A stretch of 44,857 nucleotides of DNA from Escherichia phage phiA2-1. Positions 6,588 through 37,521 of the stretch are shown in pieces; positions within the stretch are counted from its first letter, which is position 1; every line of letters starts with the position of its first letter. The notes under the pieces were generated by a model, which was given only the letters and a program-made list of their open reading frames with translations, was not told where the DNA came from and did not search any database. A program made the position numbers and the translations under genes. Location: the sequence record OR861626.1, one strand, 5' to 3'.

Positions 6588-6650
6588 ATAGCACTTTTTG
6601 CTAAAGCACTTATTCAGCTTTACTGTATAGTTATCTCATCGAAACGAAAT
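6588..6650 (+). promoter_or_regulatory. Conserved promoter-like cassette (ATAGCAC-N4-TTGCTA box, 22-nt spacer, TATAGT, CATCGAAACGAAA leader)
   Basis: ATAGCACTTTTTGCTAAAG at 6588; TATAGT 22 nt after TTGCTA; ATCGAAACGAA at 6638..6648; ATG at 6665. Confidence 0.5.
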
Positions 6651-10669: not shown

Positions 10670-11140
10670 ATGAACTGGAATTATGTTTTTGAGTATAGAG
10701 AGGGTGTTCTTTATTGGAAGGTAAAACCAGCCATACAATACAATATTGGCGATGTTGCTGGTTTCTTTTGTGAAAAGAGAGGTTACATAATCGTTCAATA
10801 CAGGCGTGTAAAGGTAATGGCCCATAGGGTTGTATGGGAAATGTTTAATGGAAGAATAGCTGATGACATGGAAATTGATCACATTGACCACTCTAGAAAA
10901 AACAACAACATATCAAACCTAAGACTGGTAACGAAGAGTGATAACATGAAAAACAAAAGCATGTACTCATCAAATAAAACTGGCGTTGTCGGGGTTAGTT
11001 ACTGCAAAACAAAGAAAAAATTTATATCAAAGATAGGTAAGAGAATTCTATTAACAACAAGCAATTTTGAAGAGGCTGTAAAAGCGAGAAAAATCGCAGA
11101 GATAGCCCTTAATTATCACAAAAATCACGGGAGTAAATAA
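10670..11140 (+). CDS. HNH homing endonuclease (HNH plus AP2-like DNA-binding region)
   Basis: Motifs HRVVWE, IDHIDH, NLRLV...N..N; AT-rich gene inserted between tape measure and tail protein M. Confidence 0.7.
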   Translation: MNWNYVFEYREGVLYWKVKPAIQYNIGDVAGFFCEKRGYIIVQYRRVKVMAHRVVWEMFNGRIADDMEIDHIDHSRKNNNISNLRLVTKSDNMKNKSMYSSNKTGVVGVSYCKTKKKFISKIGKRILLTTSNFEEAVKARKIAEIALNYHKNHGSK

Positions 11141-14274: not shown

Positions 14275-14763
14275 ATGCAAAAATTCGAGAATTACCTTTA
14301 CGAGATTGATGGAAAGCTATACTGGAAGGAGGCGAGAAACAACTCGGCCAAAATAGAGTCAGAGGCTGGATTTATTCATCATTCTGGCTATAGGTATGTT
14401 AAATTGAATGACAAACAGACTTCATCTCACAGGATTCTTTGGTACTTAAGAAATGGATTCAAGATGCCACCTAAAGGCATGGAGATTGACCATATAAATG
14501 GAAACAGGCTTGACAACTCAGCTAGTAACTTACGGATTGTATCTTCATCGGTAAACTCAAAAAACAGGTCAAAAAGGTCAGATAACTCAAGCGGCGTTGC
14601 GGGAGTTGGATTTCATAAGTTAACTGGAACGTGGTGGGCTACGATATCAATAAACAAAAAGAGAAAGCACTTGGGGCTATTCGTTGATTGGTTTGAAGCA
14701 GTGTGCGCCAGAAAGAGCGCTGAGAACTTAAATGGTGAGTACACCTATAGACATGGTAAGTAA
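14275..14763 (+). CDS. HNH homing endonuclease (HNH plus AP2-like region)
   Basis: Motifs HRILWY, IDHINGN, NLRIV...N..N; inserted between I and J; inverted repeat AGTCACC/GGTGACT (14240..14270) just upstream of start. Confidence 0.7.
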   Translation: MQKFENYLYEIDGKLYWKEARNNSAKIESEAGFIHHSGYRYVKLNDKQTSSHRILWYLRNGFKMPPKGMEIDHINGNRLDNSASNLRIVSSSVNSKNRSKRSDNSSGVAGVGFHKLTGTWWATISINKKRKHLGLFVDWFEAVCARKSAENLNGEYTYRHGK

Positions 14764-25036: not shown

Positions 25037-25958
25037 AGTTTATTAAGTCGTTGGCTTTGTACACTTTCTTGCGTATGCCTGTTTTAAATGACTTACCGTC
25101 ATTGGGAATCACCACATCAACATTGCGATCGTCAGCAACAGCAAGGATATCGATATCATAATCATGGCAAGCAATTCTGAACTTCCTTGACTTGTCGCGG
25201 TGTATAACCATCTCCATATTGTAACAGGAGAAAGCAACAAACACCTCGCGACCCCCAGTAGCAAGGTGAACACGTACGCCATCAATATAATTGTCAACAA
25301 CATAAGTATAACTATTGTCCTGCCTAGAACCAATGACAGCAACAGAATCACGAGTATAATCACCAGCAAGGAACTTAACATTTGAATCCTCATCAATAAA
25401 CATTACGTTACAGAACTCATCACCAAGCCCATCCTCATAAACCATGGAGCAAGGCACGGCATGAATCATTGAACCATCTTTAGCTATACCAACATCAAAA
25501 CCAGATTCAGAGTATATACCCTCATATGTCGTGAGTGGACTTGAGTCAACTCGCTGAGTTCTCCCCATGACCTCCAAAACTTTTTCATGGTCTACTTGAG
25601 CGCCCATCTTATAACGATGAGTTCTGGATGCTTGCTTGTTTGCTTTAACTATAACCTCAATTGGTGTTAAGTTCAGCCAGTCACCAAGCAAATTTACTGA
25701 ATCGGCGAAGGACGATCCAGTGCACTTCATGACCCATCCTATACCGGAGTCACTTCCGCATTTCGAACAAACTGCCGCGCCATTTCCTTTTTCACTGCCT
25801 ATTTCGTCGGTAAATCTGAATCTGTCAGTGCCAAAGCAGTATGGGCATGGTCCGTGCTTCTTACTTAGGTGTCTATCATTCCAACCAAGTTCCTTTGCAT
25901 AAAATGATTTCCACAATCCGGCCATCTTAGGTATAACTTCATTCTTATCGTAATTCAT
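25035..25958 (-). CDS. DNA primase-like protein (zinc-ribbon plus TOPRIM-like region)
   Basis: CPYC...CSKCG zinc-binding motif; acidic AVADDRNVD segment; located in replication block. Confidence 0.45.
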   Translation of the reverse strand: MNYDKNEVIPKMAGLWKSFYAKELGWNDRHLSKKHGPCPYCFGTDRFRFTDEIGSEKGNGAAVCSKCGSDSGIGWVMKCTGSSFADSVNLLGDWLNLTPIEVIVKANKQASRTHRYKMGAQVDHEKVLEVMGRTQRVDSSPLTTYEGIYSESGFDVGIAKDGSMIHAVPCSMVYEDGLGDEFCNVMFIDEDSNVKFLAGDYTRDSVAVIGSRQDNSYTYVVDNYIDGVRVHLATGGREVFVAFSCYNMEMVIHRDKSRKFRIACHDYDIDILAVADDRNVDVVIPNDGKSFKTGIRKKVYKANDLIN

Positions 25959-26434
25959 TTGCTTAACCCGTGATTTTCGTGAAAGTTGTATTTTCTCTCT
26001 GCTTCAATTCTTACTTTATACGCCTGCTCTGGAGTATCGAAGTTCCCAAGGTGTAGCTGCTTGCCGTCAACCTTGATGTGAGCCTTAAATTTTCCGTGAT
26101 TTAGCTTTACCACTCCACAATAACCAGTTGTTGATAAAACGCTAAGATTGCAATTTCTTGAGTTACCTTGATTTGTTGTTACTCTTAGGTTTTCTATTCT
26201 GTTATCTAATTTGTTATGGTTTATATGATCAATGTAGTCGCCATTTTGAAGTTCTCCATTAAACATCTCCCACACAACTCTATGTACATAAGTCCTAAGG
26301 CCATTAACAGACACTTTGTAATAGCCAGATGTAGATAGTGAGTTGCACTCATCGCCAACCTTAACACGTCTTGCAGTGCTAATCTTCCAATGCAATTTGC
26401 CATCTACATAGTAAAAATAATCATGCCAGTTCAT
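25955..26434 (-). CDS. HNH homing endonuclease (HNH plus AP2-like region)
   Basis: Motifs HRVVWEMFNG, IDHINHN, NLRVT; third paralog of the same family. Confidence 0.7.
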   Translation of the reverse strand: MNWHDYFYYVDGKLHWKISTARRVKVGDECNSLSTSGYYKVSVNGLRTYVHRVVWEMFNGELQNGDYIDHINHNKLDNRIENLRVTTNQGNSRNCNLSVLSTTGYCGVVKLNHGKFKAHIKVDGKQLHLGNFDTPEQAYKVRIEAERKYNFHENHGLSK

Positions 26435-26972: not shown

Positions 26973-27040
26973 ATAGCACTTTTTGTTAAACAATAGGTTC
27001 GATAATTGTTATTATACAGCAATGCAACGAACTAACAAAC
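26973..27040 (+). promoter_or_regulatory. Promoter-like cassette
   Basis: ATAGCACTTTTTGTTAAA, ~21-22 nt, TATTAT/ATTATA, upstream of helicase ATG 27057. Confidence 0.45.
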
Positions 27041-27056
27041 TGTCAGGATATTTAAA

Positions 27057-29051
27057 ATGCATCCAGTAGAGCGCTTAGTAGCCAACTTTGATCAAGAGAA
27101 GATTAAGCAGATTCAGAAGGATTATCAGTTTGGAAATATTACGCCGTATCCATTCCAGTGCGTGACATTCGACCAAATAGGTAAGCACATTGCTAAGTAC
27201 GAAGCGCCATTCATAGCAGACCTTTCTGTATCTGCTGGTAAGACAATCATTCTTGCCATGATTGGGAAACGCATGGAGCAGCTTGGCCTTCCTTATATGG
27301 TGCTATCTCGCCAGTCTGAGATTATCAGCCAGAACGCTGAAGAGCTTCGTAACTTCGGCATCCGTAATAGCGTATATTGCGCTGGCCTTAACGTTAAATC
27401 AGTTTACTACCCAACTATAGTGGCTAGTGAGGGAACGGCTGCCAACGGCTTGTTTAAGGGCCTTGGTGACTACGTTCCTGCTGTTATCGCGATAGATGAG
27501 GCGCACATGGTGGACCACATGGATATCGTAGAAGCTGAAGAGAACGAGGAAACATTCGAGCAGATGAGCACAAAGAAAGGTGAGATGGTTTTCAAGGATG
27601 GAGTGAATACCGGATTGCTTGGCACTGGTCGTGCGAAGTACACGCTAATCATTACCGAGATGAAGCGACGCTGCAAAGAGAAGTATGGTCGCGAGCTACG
27701 TATTTTCGGTTTGACTGGTAGCCCGTACCGTAACAACGACCACATTGTAGTTAGTAACCCAAATGTTCGTGGATTCTGGCGTAAGACGGTAATGCAGGTT
27801 CCAACCAGTTACCTTGTTGAATTTGGCTTCGTGGTTCCTACTGTTTACGGCGAGGTTGGCGATTTGGGTTATGACCTTAGTGAGTTCGCGCCTGATGGAA
27901 GTGATGGCGTTAAGGATTTCAGCAAAAAAGAAATGGACGCAATGGCTGAAAAGATTCATGAAAACCAGACCATGACGCAGAAAATTATGAAGTTCGTTAT
28001 CAAGCTACTTGAAACGCGTAACGCCGCATTGGTAACTTGCGCTAGCAAAATGCACTGTAGCGAAGCGGCAGCCGCGCTACCTGATGGCTATCCTTACGCG
28101 ATAATCACTGATTCTACTGGTGAGAAGAAAAGAAGGGAGATTCTCGATGAATGCAATAAAGGAAAGTACAAGATCATATTCCAGATTGGGTGCTTAACAA
28201 CAGGCGTGAACCAACCTTTGTGGGATACTAGTGTGATTCTTCGCAAGATTGGTAGCCTTACACTCATGATTCAGTTACTTGGTAGGGGGATGCGTAAGCT
28301 TAAAAAATGTCACGTTGAAGCTGGATTCCAGAAGGATGACCATGTGGTTCTTGACTTCGCTGGCGCTCTTGATGATATGGCTGAGATTTACTTTGACCCG
28401 ATTATTGAAGAGATTCAGAATGAGAAATTCAAATCATCACGCAATGGTGGAGATGAAGTAAGGATGTGTCCTCAATGTGGTTATGAGAATTCACCGTTCG
28501 CTCGACGTTGCAACAATAAGATAGATGGAGTTAGGTGTGATCACTTCTTTACTTTTGCATTATGTGAAGATATAAAGGATACGCAGACTGGAGTTATTAC
28601 CAAGAAGGGTTGTGGTGCTCGTAACGATATAGCAGCTAAGTGCTGTCGAGAATGCGGCGAGCAAATGAAGGACCCGAATGCCAACCTAACCGGTAAGATG
28701 TACCGCCGCGGAGATTACCTTCGTGTTTACGGATTTGAACTTGGACTTAGCAAGAACCAGTCAGGAATCGTAGTTAAGTACGATATCATGGCTCACACCG
28801 GTGAGCGCTTTAATGCATGGGAATTCTTCAATCCAGAGTCTGAACATAGGGTTTGCAGTGTTCTATGGAAGAACTTTTGCCTTGCTCATATAGAGAGTCG
28901 CGCTGAGGCCACAAGAATTGGCATACTTCGCAATGCGAGAATGATTATGACGAATGCCAGCAAGTTTCGAGCGCCAGTACAAGTTACACACAGAAAAAAC
29001 GGCAAGGGTAAAGATGTTATAGCTCATAAAATATTTGGAGAATTGCAATGA
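27057..29051 (+). CDS. ATP-dependent DNA helicase (SF2, DEAH-type) with C-terminal zinc-ribbon motifs
   Basis: Walker A SAGKT, motif II AIDEAHM, QLLGRGMR; C-terminal CPQCG and CCRECG. Confidence 0.7.
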   Translation: MHPVERLVANFDQEKIKQIQKDYQFGNITPYPFQCVTFDQIGKHIAKYEAPFIADLSVSAGKTIILAMIGKRMEQLGLPYMVLSRQSEIISQNAEELRNFGIRNSVYCAGLNVKSVYYPTIVASEGTAANGLFKGLGDYVPAVIAIDEAHMVDHMDIVEAEENEETFEQMSTKKGEMVFKDGVNTGLLGTGRAKYTLIITEMKRRCKEKYGRELRIFGLTGSPYRNNDHIVVSNPNVRGFWRKTVMQVPTSYLVEFGFVVPTVYGEVGDLGYDLSEFAPDGSDGVKDFSKKEMDAMAEKIHENQTMTQKIMKFVIKLLETRNAALVTCASKMHCSEAAAALPDGYPYAIITDSTGEKKRREILDECNKGKYKIIFQIGCLTTGVNQPLWDTSVILRKIGSLTLMIQLLGRGMRKLKKCHVEAGFQKDDHVVLDFAGALDDMAEIYFDPIIEEIQNEKFKSSRNGGDEVRMCPQCGYENSPFARRCNNKIDGVRCDHFFTFALCEDIKDTQTGVITKKGCGARNDIAAKCCRECGEQMKDPNANLTGKMYRRGDYLRVYGFELGLSKNQSGIVVKYDIMAHTGERFNAWEFFNPESEHRVCSVLWKNFCLAHIESRAEATRIGILRNARMIMTNASKFRAPVQVTHRKNGKGKDVIAHKIFGELQ

Positions 29052-29740: not shown

Positions 29741-29961
29741 TGGCAATTTTAACTTTTGACAAGCAGTGGGAGCTATTTAAAGCGATTGCGGCCCAGGAGC
29801 TACACAATGCTGGATATAAAGGTGATGTTTGGGATATGGCTCTATGCCTTGACTACAGCTTTGAGGAAGATTATTTGCGAACTGATATCGAGACGTGGCG
29901 CGAACGCATGGTTGCAGACATTAACGAGATGAAAAAAGATTGCCCGGATGATTTCGAATGA
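29740..29961 (+). CDS. Hypothetical acidic protein
   Basis: 73-aa ORF; start overlaps upstream stop. Confidence 0.35.
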   Translation: MAILTFDKQWELFKAIAAQELHNAGYKGDVWDMALCLDYSFEEDYLRTDIETWRERMVADINEMKKDCPDDFE

Positions 29962-30149
29962 TTGGAATCTGCGTGAAAACAAATGGAAGGTTTACACTTC
30001 TTGAGGATTACGAAGTTAACTTTAATTCAGGTGGCGAAATAATAGTAAAAGGAGACGATGAATTACATTGGTTCCTTAGTTATCAAGGTGATGGCTACTA
30101 CGTGTGTATAGATTGTCACGGAAAAGAGGTAAGTTTCTTGGTTGAATAG
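29958..30149 (+). CDS. Hypothetical small protein (member of a three-copy paralog family)
   Basis: 63 aa; shares C-V...G.G.Y...DG.Y pattern with ORFs at 32292 and 32492. Confidence 0.4.
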   Translation: MIGICVKTNGRFTLLEDYEVNFNSGGEIIVKGDDELHWFLSYQGDGYYVCIDCHGKEVSFLVE

Positions 30150-30210
30150 CACTTTTTGTTAAAAAATAAATCCATGGATGGATTATATTAAAAACATCAA
30201 CAACGCAGAG
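30146..30210 (+). promoter_or_regulatory. Promoter-like cassette
   Basis: ATAGCACTTTTTGTTAAAA, 22 nt, TATATT; box overlaps upstream stop TAG. Confidence 0.45.
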
Positions 30211-30219
30211 GATTAAGAG

Positions 30220-30345
30220 ATGAGAATCGTAGATAAAGAGATGTTCGAGATTGCTCAAATTTATGCGAAGCAAGCAGTTAGAGATAATGACAATTATTGC
30301 TGGATGCTGGCAAAAGAGTATATAAAAATGGCATACGGCTTATGA
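30220..30345 (+). CDS. Small ORF (41 aa), not in ORF track
   Basis: GAGGA RBS 8 nt upstream of ATG; stop overlaps next start (ATGA). Confidence 0.3.
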   Translation: MRIVDKEMFEIAQIYAKQAVRDNDNYCWMLAKEYIKMAYGL

Positions 30346-30584
30346 TAGTTGAAACTGGAAGGGACGCAGTATGGGCGCACTGTGCAGAGGCTGGCATTCA
30401 GGATGACATAAAGATGATATCTAAGTACTTCGACATAAAAGATATCAGCGTCATTTTCAACGGTAAGTTTACATACATGGATGAAAGACCTCGCAAGTAT
30501 GTCAGGGTTAAGCCTGGTGTCACGATAAACACGAATGAGTTCCTGAAAGAGCAGGGATTCAAATTTAAGATAACAAAGGGTTAG
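30342..30584 (+). CDS. Hypothetical protein
   Basis: Track ORF from 30297 (TTG); ATG at 30342 coupled to upstream small ORF. Confidence 0.35.
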   Translation: MIVETGRDAVWAHCAEAGIQDDIKMISKYFDIKDISVIFNGKFTYMDERPRKYVRVKPGVTINTNEFLKEQGFKFKITKG

Positions 30585-30586
30585 CT

Positions 30587-30838
30587 ATGTTTGGATTAGA
30601 TTTTCAGCCTGAACACTATGATTTAGTTCATGGTAGTAGTGGCGACAAGTTTAGAGTGATACCTATTTCTGACTGGTTTCCACCTGACTATGTGGATGTT
30701 AATGCGAAGACAAAGGATGGTAAATGGGTACAGATTTACTATTCTCCAGCGTGCGGAAATTTGTGCATGACTGACCTTGACCAGAAATTAGCAATTAGTG
30801 CGGATTTAATCGACTTCTGGTTGAAAGAAGTTGTATGA
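30587..30838 (+). CDS. Hypothetical protein
   Basis: 83-aa ORF. Confidence 0.35.
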   Translation: MFGLDFQPEHYDLVHGSSGDKFRVIPISDWFPPDYVDVNAKTKDGKWVQIYYSPACGNLCMTDLDQKLAISADLIDFWLKEVV

Positions 30839-30919
30839 AGTACGCCACCCTAGTAGCATTAGTACCACTGTTTAGCTTTACTATCTTATATTTTATCGTG
30901 ATGAACTAAGGACTTGAAA

Positions 30920-32056
30920 ATGGCAGTAGCAAAAATTAGCAACGAGCAGTTGACAGAAGAATTGAGAAATGGCCTAACAAACAAGGCGATTGCGGAGAAG
31001 TATGGCATGAACATTCGCAATGTTGAGCTTCGTCGCAGCAAGTTGGCCAAGAGTGGACTATTCGGGCACGGAAATGAAGGTATCAAGAAGCTAGTGCCTG
31101 ATGGCTATATGGTAAAAGGCACTTCGACAATGATTGATGCGGAAGGGAGAGAGAAGCTGCGCTGGGTTAAGACTTCCATTGATTCAGAAAAACAAGAAGA
31201 GATGCTTCAGCAGATTGTTCAGGCCCTTACTGATGAGGTTCCTCGCGAGGCTCCGAAGCCGCTCAGTGAATCAAGCTATGAGGACACTTTAAGTCTCTAC
31301 CCTGTATTTGATATGCACATTGGCGCGATGGCTCACCATGCGGAGTGCGGAGAAAACTACAGCACAGAAATTGCTGAGCGAGTACTTAACCAGTACTTTG
31401 ATTATGCGGTCGCAAAAGCTCCAAATTCATCGAAGGCCGTGTTACTAATTGGGGGTGACTTCTTGCATTCAGATAGTCTGGAGGCTGTGACACCAACAAG
31501 CAGGCACTCATTAGACCAAGATAGTCGATATCATAAGTTAGTCTATGTTGCTGTGCGATCAACTCGCAGAGCTATCAGCAGGATGCTTGATAAGCACAAG
31601 GAGATTGAGGTGCAAATCATCCCAGGCAACCACGATTTAAGTGGTATGATTTGGCTTCGAGCCGCTATGGCCGCTTTTTACATGGATGAGCCGCGCGTAA
31701 ATGTTGATGCTTCACCAGCAGCGCTTCACGTTACACATTTTGGCAAGACGCTTTTGGGTTATTGTCATGGTCATGAGTTGCGTAAGCCTGACACTCGTCT
31801 TTCAACACTTGCGCGAGACCACCGCAAAGCATTTGGTAGTGCTGAGTATGTTTATACACACAGCGGCCATTACCACCATCAGACAGTTACTGAGGGTAAT
31901 TTAGGTATTGATGAGTCGCACGGACAGTTGGGTTGTAAGGATGCGTACAGCGCAAACGGAGGGTATCGTTCTTATCGTCAGGCTTCAGTAATCATCTATA
32001 GCCCAGAGTATGGTGAAGTTGGTCGATTCACTTGCCGTCCTGAAATGTTTAAGTAA
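30920..32056 (+). CDS. Metallophosphoesterase-domain protein with N-terminal HTH-like region
   Basis: Track ORF from 30914; ATG 30920 after AAGGA; GDFLH, GNHD, GHELR, GHYHH motifs; N-terminal LTNKAIAEKYGMNIRNVELRR. Confidence 0.55.
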   Translation: MAVAKISNEQLTEELRNGLTNKAIAEKYGMNIRNVELRRSKLAKSGLFGHGNEGIKKLVPDGYMVKGTSTMIDAEGREKLRWVKTSIDSEKQEEMLQQIVQALTDEVPREAPKPLSESSYEDTLSLYPVFDMHIGAMAHHAECGENYSTEIAERVLNQYFDYAVAKAPNSSKAVLLIGGDFLHSDSLEAVTPTSRHSLDQDSRYHKLVYVAVRSTRRAISRMLDKHKEIEVQIIPGNHDLSGMIWLRAAMAAFYMDEPRVNVDASPAALHVTHFGKTLLGYCHGHELRKPDTRLSTLARDHRKAFGSAEYVYTHSGHYHHQTVTEGNLGIDESHGQLGCKDAYSANGGYRSYRQASVIIYSPEYGEVGRFTCRPEMFK

Positions 32057-32116
32057 TAGCACTTTTTGTCAAAACATAGCGACTAAAAGTCGCTATTATT
32101 GTTTTATCGAAACGAG
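32056..32116 (+). promoter_or_regulatory. Promoter-like cassette containing a perfect 9-bp-arm palindrome in the spacer
   Basis: ATAGCACTTTTTGTCAAAA, 22 nt (includes ATAGCGACT-AAA-AGTCGCTAT), TATTAT, ATCGAAACGAG leader. Confidence 0.5.
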
Positions 32117-32134
32117 ATGAGAGAGGAAAACAAA

Positions 32135-32275
32135 ATGATTCTAATTGGTATACTGACCGCTTTTTTCTATTATGCTACAGGTCTAACCTTTTTGATGTCC
32201 TTAGGTGCAGCCATAGGTACTTACTTCGTATCTGCTTTACTTGCCTTAATCGTGGGGGCACTGCGCAATCGCTAA
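32135..32275 (+). CDS. Small hydrophobic membrane peptide (46 aa), not in ORF track
   Basis: Hand translation MILIGILTAFFYYATGLTFLMSLGAAIGTYFVSALLALIVGALRNR; GAGAGAGG RBS-like leader. Confidence 0.3.
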   Translation: MILIGILTAFFYYATGLTFLMSLGAAIGTYFVSALLALIVGALRNR

Positions 32276-32291
32276 AATGAGAGAGAAAAAA

Positions 32292-32474
32292 ATGAACAAC
32301 GTTAAACTTAAGTGTGTATCAAACTCATCTAAGTCACTTGATTTTATCACTGGTGACACCTATGAGGCTCAGAATCGTGGCGATGGATTGTACAACGTGA
32401 CCACATCAAAAGGTTGGTGCTTGATTTGCCCACTTGACGGTTATTTCGTTAAGTTTGCTGAAGTTTCAGAATAA
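32292..32474 (+). CDS. Hypothetical small protein (paralog family)
   Basis: Track ORF from 32277; ATG 32292 has the better RBS; similar to 29958 and 32492 ORFs. Confidence 0.4.
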   Translation: MNNVKLKCVSNSSKSLDFITGDTYEAQNRGDGLYNVTTSKGWCLICPLDGYFVKFAEVSE

Positions 32475-32491
32475 ACAATAGAGAACTCAAA

Positions 32492-32665
32492 ATGACTAAA
32501 TTATACTGCGTTAAAAACAACTCAAAAACCCTTCCGTTTACCGAAAACCAGCCATATAGCGGAGAGGCTCTTGGCAGTGGTTACTACAAGATTTACGGCG
32601 ATGACATGACGCACATCCTTGCGCCTATTGATGGCTCTTTAGTGGAATTTATTATCGCAGATTAA
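32492..32665 (+). CDS. Hypothetical small protein (paralog family), not in ORF track
   Basis: Hand translation MTKLYCVKNNSKTLPFTENQPYSGEALGSGYYKIYGDDMTHILAPIDGSLVEFIIAD. Confidence 0.35.
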   Translation: MTKLYCVKNNSKTLPFTENQPYSGEALGSGYYKIYGDDMTHILAPIDGSLVEFIIAD

Positions 32666-32689: not shown

Positions 32690-32717
32690 GTGGGGGGCCT
32701 TTTGGCTCCCCTTTTTG
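32690..32717 (+). terminator. Rho-independent terminator
   Basis: GGGGGGCC-TTTT-GGCTCCCC plus T5. Confidence 0.5.
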
Positions 32718-32720
32718 TGC

Positions 32721-32792: not shown

Positions 32793-33008
32793 ATGAGGGA
32801 AGTACTTAACGCTGCTACGGCATCAACTGGCGGGGCAGCTGTAACTGGCGCCGCAACTGGTCAAATGACCATCGCAATAATCAGTATTATAGCTCTTGTC
32901 GTTTTTGGGTTATGGGGCGCTTACTGGAAGTTTAAGGATAGCCAGGCAATTAGACGGGCGCTTGAATCAGGAGACCTAAAGAAGGCAATAAAGATAAGGA
33001 GTAAGTAA
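32793..33008 (+). CDS. Holin (pinholin-like)
   Basis: 71 aa; Gly/Ala-rich weak TM segment then strong TM (MTIAIISIIALVVFGLWGAYW); charged C-terminus; directly before endolysin. Confidence 0.6.
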   Translation: MREVLNAATASTGGAAVTGAATGQMTIAIISIIALVVFGLWGAYWKFKDSQAIRRALESGDLKKAIKIRSK

Positions 33009-33493
33009 TGAAGCAGAAGCTTGTGATTAGTGCAGCGACGGCAGCGGCAATATACATCGCAGCGCCGATTATTGAGCTTGTTGAAGGTGTTGAGTACAGG
33101 CCTTATAAGGATATAGCAGGGGTGTGGACAATTTGCAGTGGGATAACTGGCCCAGACGTTATTATCGGAAAGACATACACAAAATCAGAGTGTAGGAGAT
33201 TGTTAGAAAAGCACATTCAGATTCACGGAAAGTATGTGCAGGATGCAGTTACCTATCCAATAGCACCAGAAACAATGGCGGCTTTAATCAGCTTTAGCTA
33301 CAACGTTGGCGGTTCCGCGATGAGGAAGTCAACGGCTGTCAGGTTGATTAACCAGGGTAAGATTGAGGAAGGATGCAAGGCTCTCGGGATGTGGAATAAA
33401 GCTATGGTTAATGGCAAGCTGAAGGTTATCAAGGGCCTAGCAAACAGGCGTAACGAGGAAATCAAATTATGCTTAAGCGGGGTGGGTAAATGA
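33008..33493 (+). CDS. SAR endolysin (T4-lysozyme-like muramidase)
   Basis: N-terminal Ala/Ile-rich SAR-like segment; catalytic-type spacing E-x8-D-x5-T (ELVEGVEYRPYKDIAGVWT). Confidence 0.7.
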   Translation: MKQKLVISAATAAAIYIAAPIIELVEGVEYRPYKDIAGVWTICSGITGPDVIIGKTYTKSECRRLLEKHIQIHGKYVQDAVTYPIAPETMAALISFSYNVGGSAMRKSTAVRLINQGKIEEGCKALGMWNKAMVNGKLKVIKGLANRRNEEIKLCLSGVGK

Positions 33494-33876
33494 GGGCTGT
33501 GGTAATTGCTGCGGTAATTCTGCTTTCCGGCTGTTCGGCAACATCTGCACTGACCGGGTTAATTGGCAGCAAACCGGAGATAAGTGCTCAGGCAGGTGCG
33601 GAGAATAACAAGGTTGGCGTTGGCCTGACTAACAAGGTTGATTCAAGTTCCAGCGCAAAGGCTGAAGTGAAGAACTCAAAGGTTGACACCCTTGATAGCT
33701 CGAGCGGAAAGAAGACTGCTGACAACTCAATCAAAGCGTCAACAATCACGGCAGAGAAGATTGAAATCACCAATAATGATTCGTCTGCCATACCGTGGAT
33801 TGGAAGCGGAATCATGTTGTGCATCATCATCATTCTGCTTTTAGTTATATTCAGGAAAAACAAAAAAGCCCCGTAA
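33490..33876 (+). CDS. Unimolecular spanin (lipoprotein signal plus C-terminal TMD)
   Basis: Lipobox LLSGC at N-terminus; C-terminal TM IMLCIIIILLLVIF; last gene of lysis cassette. Confidence 0.6.
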   Translation: MRAVVIAAVILLSGCSATSALTGLIGSKPEISAQAGAENNKVGVGLTNKVDSSSSAKAEVKNSKVDTLDSSSGKKTADNSIKASTITAEKIEITNNDSSAIPWIGSGIMLCIIIILLLVIFRKNKKAP

Positions 33877-36412: not shown

Positions 36413-36475
36413 ATTTCGTTTCGATGAAGTAACTATACAACAAAAGCCCCGAATGGCTTTAGCAATTAGTGCTAT
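36413..36475 (-). promoter_or_regulatory. Promoter-like cassette (minus orientation)
   Basis: Minus strand AATAGCACTAATTGCTAAAG, 22 nt, TATAGT, CATCGAAACGAA leader. Confidence 0.5.
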
Positions 36476-36620
36476 TTCTCGCCTTCTCAATCGCCTTCAG
36501 CATAACCTCGTGAGACTCAAGCAGATCCTCGTTGAACCAGTCTCCGCAAGGCCAACCATTTCCGCTGTATGCGGCCACAACACTTAAGTCGTAGTAGTTA
36601 ATATCAGATGGTAATAGCAT
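36471..36620 (-). CDS. Small ORF (49 aa), not in ORF track
   Basis: Hand translation; stop TAA lies within the cassette box. Confidence 0.25.
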
Positions 36621-36622
36621 TA

Positions 36623-36823
36623 TTAAATCACCTTAAAAGTTGCAATACCGTGGATGATGACGTAATCAAGGCATTTAAGCGCCTGAAACGTATCGTGATG
36701 CTTGTGTGGGCGGTCTCCTGTAACAAGGCACATGTCATCTTTGAAATCGGTAGCATTGTATTCAGACCCCTTATTGAATGCGTCTTTAAAGTCTTTAATG
36801 ATGTTAGTGCAAAGAAGTTTCAT
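36623..36823 (-). CDS. Hypothetical protein
   Basis: 66-aa ORF. Confidence 0.3.
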   Translation of the reverse strand: MKLLCTNIIKDFKDAFNKGSEYNATDFKDDMCLVTGDRPHKHHDTFQALKCLDYVIIHGIATFKVI

Positions 36824-36824
36824 G

Positions 36825-37043
36825 TTAATCCTCTAAAATTTCAAAAATCAATCGACCTTTAATCGCAGCAATAACAAGGCCATTTTCGATGTAGCAGAAA
36901 ATTGGTCTGAAGTTATCGCCAAACACGTAACCATGAACTTCATCATAACTGTAATGCTTCCCACTGCTAAATTCCCAGGTTCCATCATTAAGATTATTTA
37001 AGCACTTAACTTTCATTTCTTCATTCCTTACCAGGGTAAACAT
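36825..37043 (-). CDS. Hypothetical protein
   Basis: 72-aa ORF. Confidence 0.3.
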   Translation of the reverse strand: MFTLVRNEEMKVKCLNNLNDGTWEFSSGKHYSYDEVHGYVFGDNFRPIFCYIENGLVIAAIKGRLIFEILED

Positions 37044-37249
37044 TCATAGCAACCAAGGCCATCACAACATAGATAATCATCATCTGACTGGAATTGCTTA
37101 GCCAGGTCAATATCGATGCGTCCGCGCAAAACCATATCAGTGTAATCATGGTTAAGTCCAATCAGCGAACATTCCTGCTTTAGTTGCTCAAGTGCTTCAC
37201 CTTTAAGTTTCATATTAGCTCCAGGAGTTGATGTAAATTGAGTTGTCAT
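37028..37249 (-). CDS. Hypothetical protein
   Basis: 73-aa ORF. Confidence 0.3.
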   Translation of the reverse strand: MTTQFTSTPGANMKLKGEALEQLKQECSLIGLNHDYTDMVLRGRIDIDLAKQFQSDDDYLCCDGLGCYECLPW

Positions 37250-37449: not shown

Positions 37450-37521
37450 TCTTATGTACTTCGTTTCGATGAGATGATTATGGTCTCCTTGCCAATGAAT
37501 GTCTTTAGCAAAAAGTGCTAT
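37450..37521 (-). promoter_or_regulatory. Promoter-like cassette (minus orientation)
   Basis: Minus strand AATAGCACTTTTTGCTAAAG, ~24 nt, CATAAT, CATCGAAACGAAG leader. Confidence 0.45.

What the first reader, a model, noticed from the sequence alone, without database searches (positions are those of the whole stretch)
29958..32665. Three-member paralog family of ~60-aa proteins, two in tandem
The ORFs at 29958..30149, 32292..32474 and 32492..32665 (the last not in the track) share a pattern: C-V near the N-terminus, a central G-x-G-x-Y motif and a C-terminal DG-x-Y/L-V-x-F. Duplicated small early proteins in phages are often host-takeover or anti-defence factors that diversify under selection.
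Basis: seen in the sequence. Interest (0 to 1): 0.45.

Follow-up and report, generated by a model that had tools for sequence, protein, structure and literature searches.

The report
Two tandem SH3-like phage mini-proteins
Two of the three small proteins are a tandem pair from a known but uncharacterised T1-like phage family, the "standalone SH3" protein (DUF7244) encoded just before the lysis genes; the third belongs to a different small-protein family, so the finding is mostly ordinary.

Summary
The window is a T1/Rtp-like (Drexlerviridae) coliphage. All three ORFs exist at the stated coordinates.

**B and C are true paralogs.** B is 32292-32474 and C is 32492-32665. They share 35% identity (E 2e-11, z 16 against shuffles). 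Both pass the Pfam DUF7244 threshold and match phrog_4788. An AlphaFold model of C (pLDDT 92) is a five-strand SH3-like barrel. This family was described in 2026 as the "standalone SH3" next to the Drexlerviridae lysis cassette. Its function is untested.

**A is not in that family.** A (29958-30149) belongs to phrog_3249. Its profile similarity to DUF7244 is above chance, but it rests almost entirely on one six-residue motif (QGDGYY), and the alignment register is unstable. Two other window ORFs (36825-37016 and 36623-36823, both on the minus strand) resemble DUF7244 at least as well.

**The tandem pair is rare and not a local duplication.** No deposited phage genome hit by three family queries has two copies; only three metagenome contigs do. 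B arrived within a 400-bp cassette (a small membrane ORF plus B).

**Transcription and location.** A conserved terminator separates DUF7244 from the holin gene. The proteins are acidic and have no export signal. They are most likely cytoplasmic protein-binding modules whose partner is unknown.

The parts
29958..30149 (+). ORF A, 63 aa, phrog_3249. Acidic small protein and last gene of the helicase operon. Not a DUF7244 member.
   Evidence: Its stop codon lies inside the promoter-like 14-mer at 30146.
30914..32056 (+). Metallophosphoesterase / "DNA repair exonuclease" (phrog_704), the conserved left neighbour of the DUF7244 slot.
   Evidence: same synteny.
32056..32069 (+). Promoter-like repeat ATAGCACTTTTTGT. 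It is the left boundary of the 400-bp cassette that carries B.
   Evidence: The DNA match to phage ES ends at 32072.
32076..32096 (+). Terminator-like hairpin just after the exonuclease gene.
32135..32275 (+). Small hydrophobic ORF (46 aa from the ATG with a GAGAGGAAA ribosome-binding site; the ORF opens at 32099). Predicted membrane protein, phrog_16572. Part of the cassette with B.
32292..32474 (+). ORF B, 60 aa, DUF7244 (PF23896, phrog_4788). Divergent "B-type" whose closest deposited relative is phage MM01 gp57 (64% identity).
   Evidence: dN/dS 0.09.
32492..32665 (+). ORF C, 57 aa, DUF7244. The common Rtp62-type standalone SH3 and last gene before the terminator.
32692..32720 (+). Intrinsic terminator (GGGGGGCC-TTTT-GGCTCCCC followed by a T-run), 27 nt after the stop codon of C.
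   Evidence: The equivalent hairpin with covarying stems is present in 27 of 28 related loci. It is annotated in MM01.
32793..33876 (+). Lysis cassette: holin (32793-33008), endolysin (33008-33493), spanin (33490-33876).
   Evidence: Phage_T1_holin, Phage_lysozyme.
36825..37016 (-). 63-aa ORF (MKVKCLNNLNDG...), a possible remote DUF7244 relative.
   Evidence: hhalign probability 61-88%, P 3e-6 to 8e-5. Only three close homologues in 5.8 billion proteins.
36623..36823 (-). 66-aa ORF (MKLLCTNIIKDF..., phrog_4448), a possible remote DUF7244 relative over its N-terminal half.
   Evidence: hhalign probability 83-84%. PHROG match.

Best explanation
B and C are two divergent copies of the Drexlerviridae "standalone SH3" protein (Pfam DUF7244). 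They are small acidic cytoplasmic five-strand beta-barrels.

**Transcription unit.** In this phage they form the 3' end of a short unit: promoter-like repeat at 32056, a small membrane ORF, B, C, then a strong terminator at 32692. The unit lies between the metallophosphoesterase gene and the holin-endolysin-spanin cassette.

**Origin of the pair.** The pair did not arise by local duplication. A 400-bp cassette (membrane ORF plus a B-type allele) was inserted or exchanged into the variable slot upstream of the resident C-type gene. In MM01-like phages the B-type allele is the only copy and occupies the terminal slot.

**ORF A.** A belongs to a separate, horizontally mobile small-protein family and shares only a short beta-hairpin motif with B and C.

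**Mechanism (inferred, not shown).** Each copy acts as an SH3-type protein-binding module. It would use the conserved RT-loop N-x-S-K-x-L-x-F and the A-P-L-x-G-H-Y segment to grip a peptide segment of a partner. My ranking of partners is:
- the cytoplasmic side of the lysis machinery, for example the +6 C-terminal tail of the pinholin, tuning lysis timing: about 30%;
- a host factor (defence or take-over): about 30%;
- a transcription-termination factor: about 10%;
- peptidoglycan: about 10%;
- something else: about 20%.
For: **Identity.** Pfam and PHROG matches. 33 homologue clusters, all carrying PF23896. The family is named and placed in the SH3 clan in PMC13164509.

**Real genes.** dN/dS is 0.09 for B and 0.21 for C.

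**Cassette origin.** The DNA match to phage ES breaks at 32072/32473. The match to L028 (80% identity) covers only 32280-32608. B-type is alone in the terminal slot in MM01 and in L031/L032. The tandem pair recurs in L028-L030 in a rearranged genome. Records equal places (186/186, 244/244 and 174/174) in three tblastn surveys of 50,697 phage records.

**Transcription.** The terminator is conserved with covarying stems in 27 of 28 loci. The promoter-like repeat occurs at 32056 and also ahead of the helicase operon. In Bas11 it lies about 60 nt upstream of gene 54, where upstream mutations lower expression (PMC11578894).

**Cytoplasmic and acidic.** Family median pI is 4.9. No hydrophobic segment is present (max KD12 1.98, against 3.36 for the holin).

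**A is separate.**
Against: - No experiment exists on any family member, so the binding partner is pure inference.
- B itself was not modelled.
- The strict position next to the holin is kept even in the rearranged L028 genome and in an Erwinia phage. This fits a lysis role. It could also reflect nothing more than family-wide synteny and the short distance to the terminator.
- The conserved terminator argues against co-expression with the lysis genes, but read-through cannot be excluded.
- An ancient in-situ duplication followed by loss in most lineages cannot be strictly ruled out.
Confidence: 0.6

Rival explanations
1. Auxiliary lysis factor that binds peptidoglycan or the endolysin, by analogy with the SH3b cell-wall-binding domains of Gram-positive phage endolysins (the proposal of Eremina et al. 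2026).
For: DUF7244 is always adjacent to the holin-endolysin-spanin cassette: in 188 of 188 carriers according to PMC13164509, and in every locus examined here that reaches the holin (27 loci plus the window; four more loci end before it). It stays with the cassette in the rearranged L028 genome, where the exonuclease is no longer upstream. Insertions always fall upstream of it, never between it and the holin.
Against: - There is no signal peptide or membrane segment. From established knowledge, T1-type lysis uses a pinholin and a SAR endolysin, and pinholes do not pass folded proteins, so a cytoplasmic 6-kDa protein has no obvious route to the murein before lysis.
- A conserved intrinsic terminator separates it from the holin gene.
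- The co-localisation is largely a single evolutionary observation, because all Drexlerviridae share gene order.
Confidence: 0.12
2. Host take-over or anti-defence factors kept in two diverged copies to cover two host targets.
For: - The genes are small, acidic, non-universal "shell" genes (188 of 522 Drexlerviridae).
- They sit in a cassette-exchange hot spot.
- They share a promoter-like motif with the early/replication operons.
Against: - There is no sequence relation to Gp54 or to any known anti-defence protein.
- Strong purifying selection (dN/dS 0.09-0.21) and a fixed genomic position are unlike typical fast-turnover anti-defence loci.
- No phenotype has been reported.
Confidence: 0.25
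3. All three ORFs (A, B, C) descend from one ancestral small beta-barrel, so A is a very divergent third member.
For: hhalign of A against DUF7244 gives P 3e-5 to 3.5e-4 and probability 37-72%. The score of 26.1 exceeds 200 column-shuffled nulls (max 18.2) and the other 23 pairs of the matrix (max 17.8). With the motif removed from both profiles, a collinear N-terminal alignment still scores 19.2.
Against: - Three runs give two mutually exclusive registers.
- The score falls to 15.5 once QGDGYY is removed from A.
- The same W...GDGYY...GK motif gives A's best PDB matches, which are to ricin-type beta-trefoil repeats. It is therefore a recurrent hairpin motif.
- A matches a different PHROG and has no Pfam hit.
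Confidence: 0.2
4. B and C arose by an in-situ tandem duplication that is ancient and was later lost in most lineages.
For: They are adjacent, on the same strand, 17 nt apart, and keep all family-invariant residues.
Against: - They are only 35% identical, about as far apart as either is from the Tempevirinae copy bas11_0041 (40-42%).
- B-type occurs alone in the terminal slot in MM01-like phages.
- No deposited genome hit by three family queries (186, 244 and 174 records) has two copies.
- The DNA-level mosaic boundaries flank B.
Confidence: 0.12
5. A KOW- or Sm-like small barrel that acts on transcription termination. For example, it could modulate read-through of the terminator 27 nt downstream into the lysis genes, or bind a host termination factor.
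Against: The fold similarity is generic for SH3-like barrels. The proteins are acidic, which does not suit RNA binding. There is no sequence match to KOW families.
Confidence: 0.07

Closest known systems
DUF7244 (Pfam PF23896, SH3 clan), the "standalone SH3" of the Drexlerviridae lysis-module neighbourhood (Eremina et al., Int J Mol Sci 2026, PMC13164509); includes Rtp gp62, phiEB49 gp10 and bas11_0041
   Same: B and C pass the family threshold. They have the same length, the same predicted SH3-like fold, the same conserved residues, and the same slot between the exonuclease and the holin.
   Different: This phage carries two copies in tandem. One is a rare divergent type (64% identical to MM01 gp57, 32-41% to the common type). 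No deposited phage genome hit by three family queries (186, 244 and 174 records) has two copies, and the paper does not mention duplication.
Gp54 of phage Bas11 (PDB 9AXB), the direct trigger of the CapRelSJ46 defence protein (PMC11578894)
   Different: There is no sequence similarity. Gp54 has six strands. It is encoded in the leftward early cluster, not beside the lysis genes. The window has no Gp54 homologue.
SH3b cell-wall-binding domains of endolysins (for example Listeria phage PSA, staphylococcal lysins)
   Same: General SH3-like barrel, and encoded near an endolysin gene.
   Different: SH3b domains are fused to an exported or released enzyme and act on exposed peptidoglycan. B and C are free-standing, lack any export signal, match no SH3b Pfam family, and are separated from the lysis genes by a terminator.
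phrog_3249 (Rtp gp57-like small proteins), the family of ORF A
   Same: A matches at E 1.7e-23 over its full length. It has the same position after the VRR-NUC and small-ORF block in Rtp, IME253, Sd1 and Bas01.
   Different: This is a different family from B and C. It also occurs in rV5-like myoviruses (between nrdD and nrdG) and in mEp021-like temperate phages (as a tail-region moron), so it is laterally mobile.

Membership tests
DUF7244 (PF23896) / phrog_4788 | Score above the Pfam gathering threshold (27 bits) over the full ~57-residue model | tested here: met
   B 78.5 bits and C 93.6 bits. phrog_4788 E 4e-13 and 4e-29.
DUF7244 (PF23896) / phrog_4788 | The same test applied to ORF A | tested here: not met
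   No PF23896 or phrog_4788 hit for A. None for 17 A-family members. My own DUF7244 HMM gives A E 0.033 among 268 ORFs.
DUF7244 (PF23896) / phrog_4788 | Minimal five-strand SH3-like beta-barrel | tested here: met
DUF7244 (PF23896) / phrog_4788 | Encoded between the DNA-repair exonuclease and the holin, next to the lysis cassette | tested here: met
   Window gene order. Same order in ES, Bas11, MM01, Snitter and L028-L032.
SH3b cell-wall-binding domains | Sequence membership in an SH3b family (SH3_3, SH3_5 and similar) | tested here: not met
   No such Pfam hit at E up to 1.
SH3b cell-wall-binding domains | Access to peptidoglycan (fused to an endolysin, or carrying an export signal) | tested here: not met
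   Free-standing ORFs. No hydrophobic N-terminal segment: max KD12 is 1.4 for B and C and at most 1.98 in 58 family members.
SH3b cell-wall-binding domains | Binds peptidoglycan | not testable with these tools
   Needs a sacculus-binding assay.
Gp54-Bas11 family (CapRel trigger) | Sequence homology to Gp54 | tested here: not met
   BLASTP of bas11_0054 against all window ORFs finds nothing below E 0.038, and that hit lies in a tail-gene region. hhalign probability is 0.2-1.2%.
Gp54-Bas11 family (CapRel trigger) | Activates CapRelSJ46 | not testable with these tools
   Needs a co-expression toxicity assay.
phrog_3249 (ORF A) | Full-length profile match | tested here: met
   E 1.7e-23, residues 1-63 against profile positions 2-65 of 65. 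90 phage records by tblastn.

The most novel reading that the evidence does not exclude
This 45-kb phage carries an expanded repertoire of at least four or five free-standing SH3-like mini-barrels: B, C, the minus-strand ORFs at 36825-37016 and 36623-36823, and possibly A. They would be shuffled between phages as promoter-bounded cassettes and would serve as a diversified set of protein binders aimed at host defence or physiology. The precedent is Gp54 of Bas11, a related-fold mini-barrel that a bacterial immune sensor recognises directly.
Probability: 0.12. Interest if true: 0.55.

Novelty: new member of a known kind. Interest (0 to 1): 0.25.

Why it matters
The family is widespread in T1-like phages (188 of 522 genomes in the published survey, and more with a sensitive profile), yet nothing is known about what it does.

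A natural phage that keeps two diverged copies side by side, both under purifying selection, is a convenient handle. Single and double deletions could show whether the copies are redundant or have different partners.

The conserved terminator and the lack of an export signal also put a concrete constraint on the only published hypothesis, that the protein is a peptidoglycan-binding lysis helper.

Beyond that, the finding is a routine annotation result. It corrects a three-member family to a two-member one.

Tried and rejected
- **A as an SH3 domain.** The first A profile had weak SH3 hits in the PDB (E 0.23). They disappeared with a richer profile.
- **A as a beta-trefoil repeat.** The richer profile hits the designed ThreeFoil protein at E 4e-6. 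That value comes from summing three identical repeats (E 0.83 each), and Pfam ricin families are not matched. I treat it as a motif resemblance.
- **Large multi-stretch hits** of the DUF7244 profile. The one I read (P0073, 160 aa, four stretches) is a lectin-type repeat that shares the GDGxY hairpin. The seven larger ones (334-1647 aa) were not read. I do not count any of them as homologues.
- **IMG/VR scans** returned only close relatives.
- **Literature search** for Drexlerviridae transcript timing gave nothing usable.
- **Independent genomic contexts** for DUF7244 outside Drexlerviridae: none found. Even the Erwinia phage has the same synteny.
Full report
**Setting.** The window is a T1/Rtp-like siphovirus of Escherichia coli (family Drexlerviridae). 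The 3.6-kb region around the finding matches about 100 such phages, with Escherichia phage ES (Braunvirinae) among the closest. The gene order on the plus strand is as follows:
- helicase (27057-29051);
- a VRR-NUC-like protein;
- small ORFs, including A (29958-30149);
- four more small ORFs;
- a metallophosphoesterase annotated as "DNA repair exonuclease" (30914-32056);
- a small hydrophobic ORF;
- B (32292-32474) and C (32492-32665);
- holin, endolysin and spanin.

B and C are clearly related.
- BLASTP gives 35% identity over 51 ungapped residues, E 2e-11.
- Their local alignment score is 16 standard deviations above 5000 shuffles.
- Both pass the curated threshold of Pfam DUF7244 (78.5 and 93.6 bits against 27).
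- Both match phrog_4788.

A is a different matter.
- Pairwise E-values are 0.049 against B and 0.002 against C. Shuffle p-values are 0.08 and 0.0018.
- A matches phrog_3249, not phrog_4788, and has no Pfam family.
- I ran a DUF7244 HMM against all 268 ORFs of the window. A scored E 0.033, level with an ORF on the other strand.

**Is A a remote relative?** I built richer profiles: 17 A-family sequences, including rV5-like and mEp021-like homologues, and 58 DUF7244 sequences.
- The profile-profile score (26.1) is above 200 column-shuffled nulls (mean 10.0, sd 2.2, max 18.2).
- It is also above the other 23 pairs of the matrix of small proteins from these phages (max 17.8).
- However, three hhalign runs gave probabilities of only 37-72% and two incompatible registers. 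In one, A's QGDGYY aligns with the central GxGYY of C. In the other, it aligns with C's C-terminal DGSLV.
- Deleting the six residues QGDGYY from the A profile drops the score to 15.5, which is background level.
- The same W...GDGYY...GK hairpin gives A's best PDB matches, which are to ricin-type beta-trefoil repeats. It is a recurrent motif, not a family signature.
- An exhaustive DUF7244 profile search of 1.84 billion representatives found 33 proteins. None of the 26 small ones I read is an A-family member. The seven large multi-stretch hits were not read.
- The AlphaFold model of A is poor (pLDDT 62), so fold comparison cannot decide the question.

I conclude that A shares a short motif with B and C. 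Common ancestry is possible (about 0.2) but not shown.

Two other ORFs match the DUF7244 profile at least as well as A does. They are 36825-37016 and 36623-36823, both on the minus strand, with probabilities of 61-88% and 83-84%.

**What B and C are.** DUF7244 belongs to the Pfam SH3 clan. A 2026 paper described it as a "standalone SH3" gene lying between the exonuclease and the pinholin in 188 of 522 Drexlerviridae genomes. The authors proposed an auxiliary lysis role by analogy with SH3b cell-wall-binding domains, without experiments (PMC13164509).

Gp54 of Bas11 is the small non-essential barrel that directly activates the CapRelSJ46 defence protein (PMC11578894). It has no sequence relative in this window, so the link is fold-level only.

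**The tandem pair is rare and is not a local duplication.**
- In three tblastn surveys of 50,697 phage records, every matching record had exactly one copy: 186, 244 and 174 records gave the same number of places.
- The B-type is rare. Its only deposited relative is MM01 gp57 (64% identity). There it is the sole copy and occupies the terminal slot before the terminator and the holin. The same holds in two metagenome contigs.
- A B-type plus C-type tandem occurs in three Logan contigs (L028-L030).
- Compared with phage ES, the window matches up to 32072 and again from 32473. The 400 bp in between (hairpin, membrane ORF, B) replace an ES segment that carries a 63-aa ORF and a 184-aa ORF (annotated only as hypothetical in ES; phages TR1-TR3 and Rao1 list a polynucleotide kinase in this region).
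- Compared with L028, only 32280-32608 (B and the first 39 codons of C) match, at 80% identity.
- In L028 the upstream genes are homologues of the window's minus-strand small-gene cluster, so that genome is rearranged. The pair nevertheless still abuts the holin.
- B and C are as distant from each other as either is from the Bas11 copy (40-42%).
- Both are under purifying selection: dN/dS is 0.09 for B (dS 0.59) and 0.21 for C (dS saturated).

**Transcription architecture.** A GC-rich hairpin with a T-run lies 27 nt after the stop codon of C (32692-32720). An equivalent terminator, 21-31 nt after the last DUF7244 gene and with covarying stems, is present in 27 of 28 related loci. It is annotated in the remaining one, MM01.

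A 14-17-nt repeat, TAGCACTTTTTGYYAAA, is followed after about 20 nt by TCATCGAAACGA. It occurs:
- at 26973, ahead of the helicase operon;
- at 30146, overlapping A's stop codon;
- at 32056, overlapping the exonuclease stop codon;
- at 6588;
- at 37508 on the minus strand, ahead of the leftward small-gene operon.

The repeat is conserved in relatives. Bas11 has nine copies, one of them about 60 nt upstream of gene 54. In that region, escape mutations "probably within its promoter" lower Gp54 expression (PMC11578894).

I therefore read B and C as the end of a short operon with its own promoter-like element, terminated before the lysis genes. This step is inferred from sequence and is not shown by transcript data.

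**How it most likely works.** The family is acidic (median pI 4.9; C has net charge -3 and B -1). It has no hydrophobic segment that could act as a signal peptide. From established knowledge, T1-type lysis uses a pinholin and a SAR endolysin, and pinholes do not pass folded proteins. This makes a periplasmic, peptidoglycan-binding role unlikely before lysis.

The invariant residues (N9, S11, K12, L14 and F16 in the first loop; Y22; P45, G48, V51 and F53 near the C-terminus) correspond by position to the RT loop and the 3-10 region that form the ligand groove of SH3 domains. This mapping is an inference and I did not compute it on coordinates.

My best reading is a cytoplasmic SH3-type binding module made independently of the lysis genes. 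I cannot identify its partner. The fixed position beside the holin, kept even after rearrangement, and the strongly basic cytoplasmic tail of the holin (+6) make a lysis-timing partner plausible. A host target is equally plausible. The probabilities are given in the explanation sections.

**ORF A.** A is the last gene of the helicase operon. Its family is also found in rV5-like myoviruses between nrdD and nrdG (52% identity). In mEp021-like temperate phages it is a terminator-flanked insert among tail genes (about 46% identity). That distribution is typical of a laterally mobile accessory gene. Its function is unknown.

**Verdict.** The finding reduces to a rare tandem arrangement of a known but uncharacterised family, plus an unrelated small ORF. 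It is a new member or arrangement of a known kind, of modest interest.

Noticed in passing
window 6588-6601, 26973-26986, 30146-30159, 32056-32069 (+) and 37508-37521 (-): A repeated intergenic element, (A)TAGCACTTTTTGYYAAA, is followed after about 20 nt by an AT-rich box and then TCATCGAAACGA. It stands ahead of operon starts: 5 copies against 0.64 expected. It is conserved in other Drexlerviridae. Bas11 has nine copies, one about 60 nt upstream of gene 54, whose upstream mutations reduce expression. It is probably a phage promoter class, and it coincides with a cassette-exchange boundary at 32072.
   Followed up: partly
window 36825-37016 (-) and 36623-36823 (-): Two adjacent small ORFs (63 and 66 aa) begin MK-x-K/L-C-x-N and carry F..G..Y. 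They match the DUF7244 profile at 61-88% and 83-84% hhalign probability, and each other at 71%. This is better than ORF A does. The first has only three close homologues in 5.8 billion proteins and no PHROG.
   Followed up: partly
window 29958-30149; loci L022 (rV5, 2501-2737) and L023 (mEp554, 2501-2686): The ORF A family (phrog_3249) is shared by three unrelated groups of E. coli phages: Drexlerviridae, rV5-like myoviruses (between nrdD and nrdG) and mEp021-like temperate phages (a tail-region moron with its own terminator). In several records it is mis-annotated as "putative minor capsid protein".
   Followed up: partly
window 32135-32275: A 46-aa strongly hydrophobic ORF (two predicted membrane helices, phrog_16572, weak holin-family hit at E 0.019) travels in the same 400-bp cassette as B, upstream of the lysis cassette.
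   Followed up: no
L028 2199-3378 versus window 36459-37249 (-): In the Logan contig SRR14663583_200, homologues of the window's minus-strand small-gene cluster lie on the plus strand directly upstream of the B+C pair. This is a genome rearrangement that keeps DUF7244 next to the holin but removes the exonuclease from its left side.
   Followed up: partly
window 10670-11140 (+), 14275-14763 (+), 25955-26434 (-): Three HNH_3 homing-endonuclease paralogs (Pfam E 3e-20, 1e-13, 4e-18) share an N-terminal Y..G.L.WK motif. Two are inserted among tail genes and one is next to the primase. This is a genuine three-member paralog family in the window.
   Followed up: partly
A-family profile (alignment A5), residues 31-52 of ORF A: The segment DDxxxW-x5-GDGYY-x5-GK resembles the QxW / GDGYY repeat of ricin-type beta-trefoil lectins. 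The best PDB hit is the designed ThreeFoil protein (E 0.83 per repeat). This is not significant, but it may explain why a GDGYY motif recurs in unrelated small beta proteins.
   Followed up: partly
window 30162-30191 and 32076-32096: Two copies of the promoter-like element carry a short hairpin in the spacer after the 14-mer: AATCCATGGATGGATT, which I read off the sequence at about 30168-30183, and ATAGCGACTAAAAGTCGCTAT at 32076-32096, which the scan reported. The second scores as a terminator-like site. Their role is unclear.
   Followed up: no
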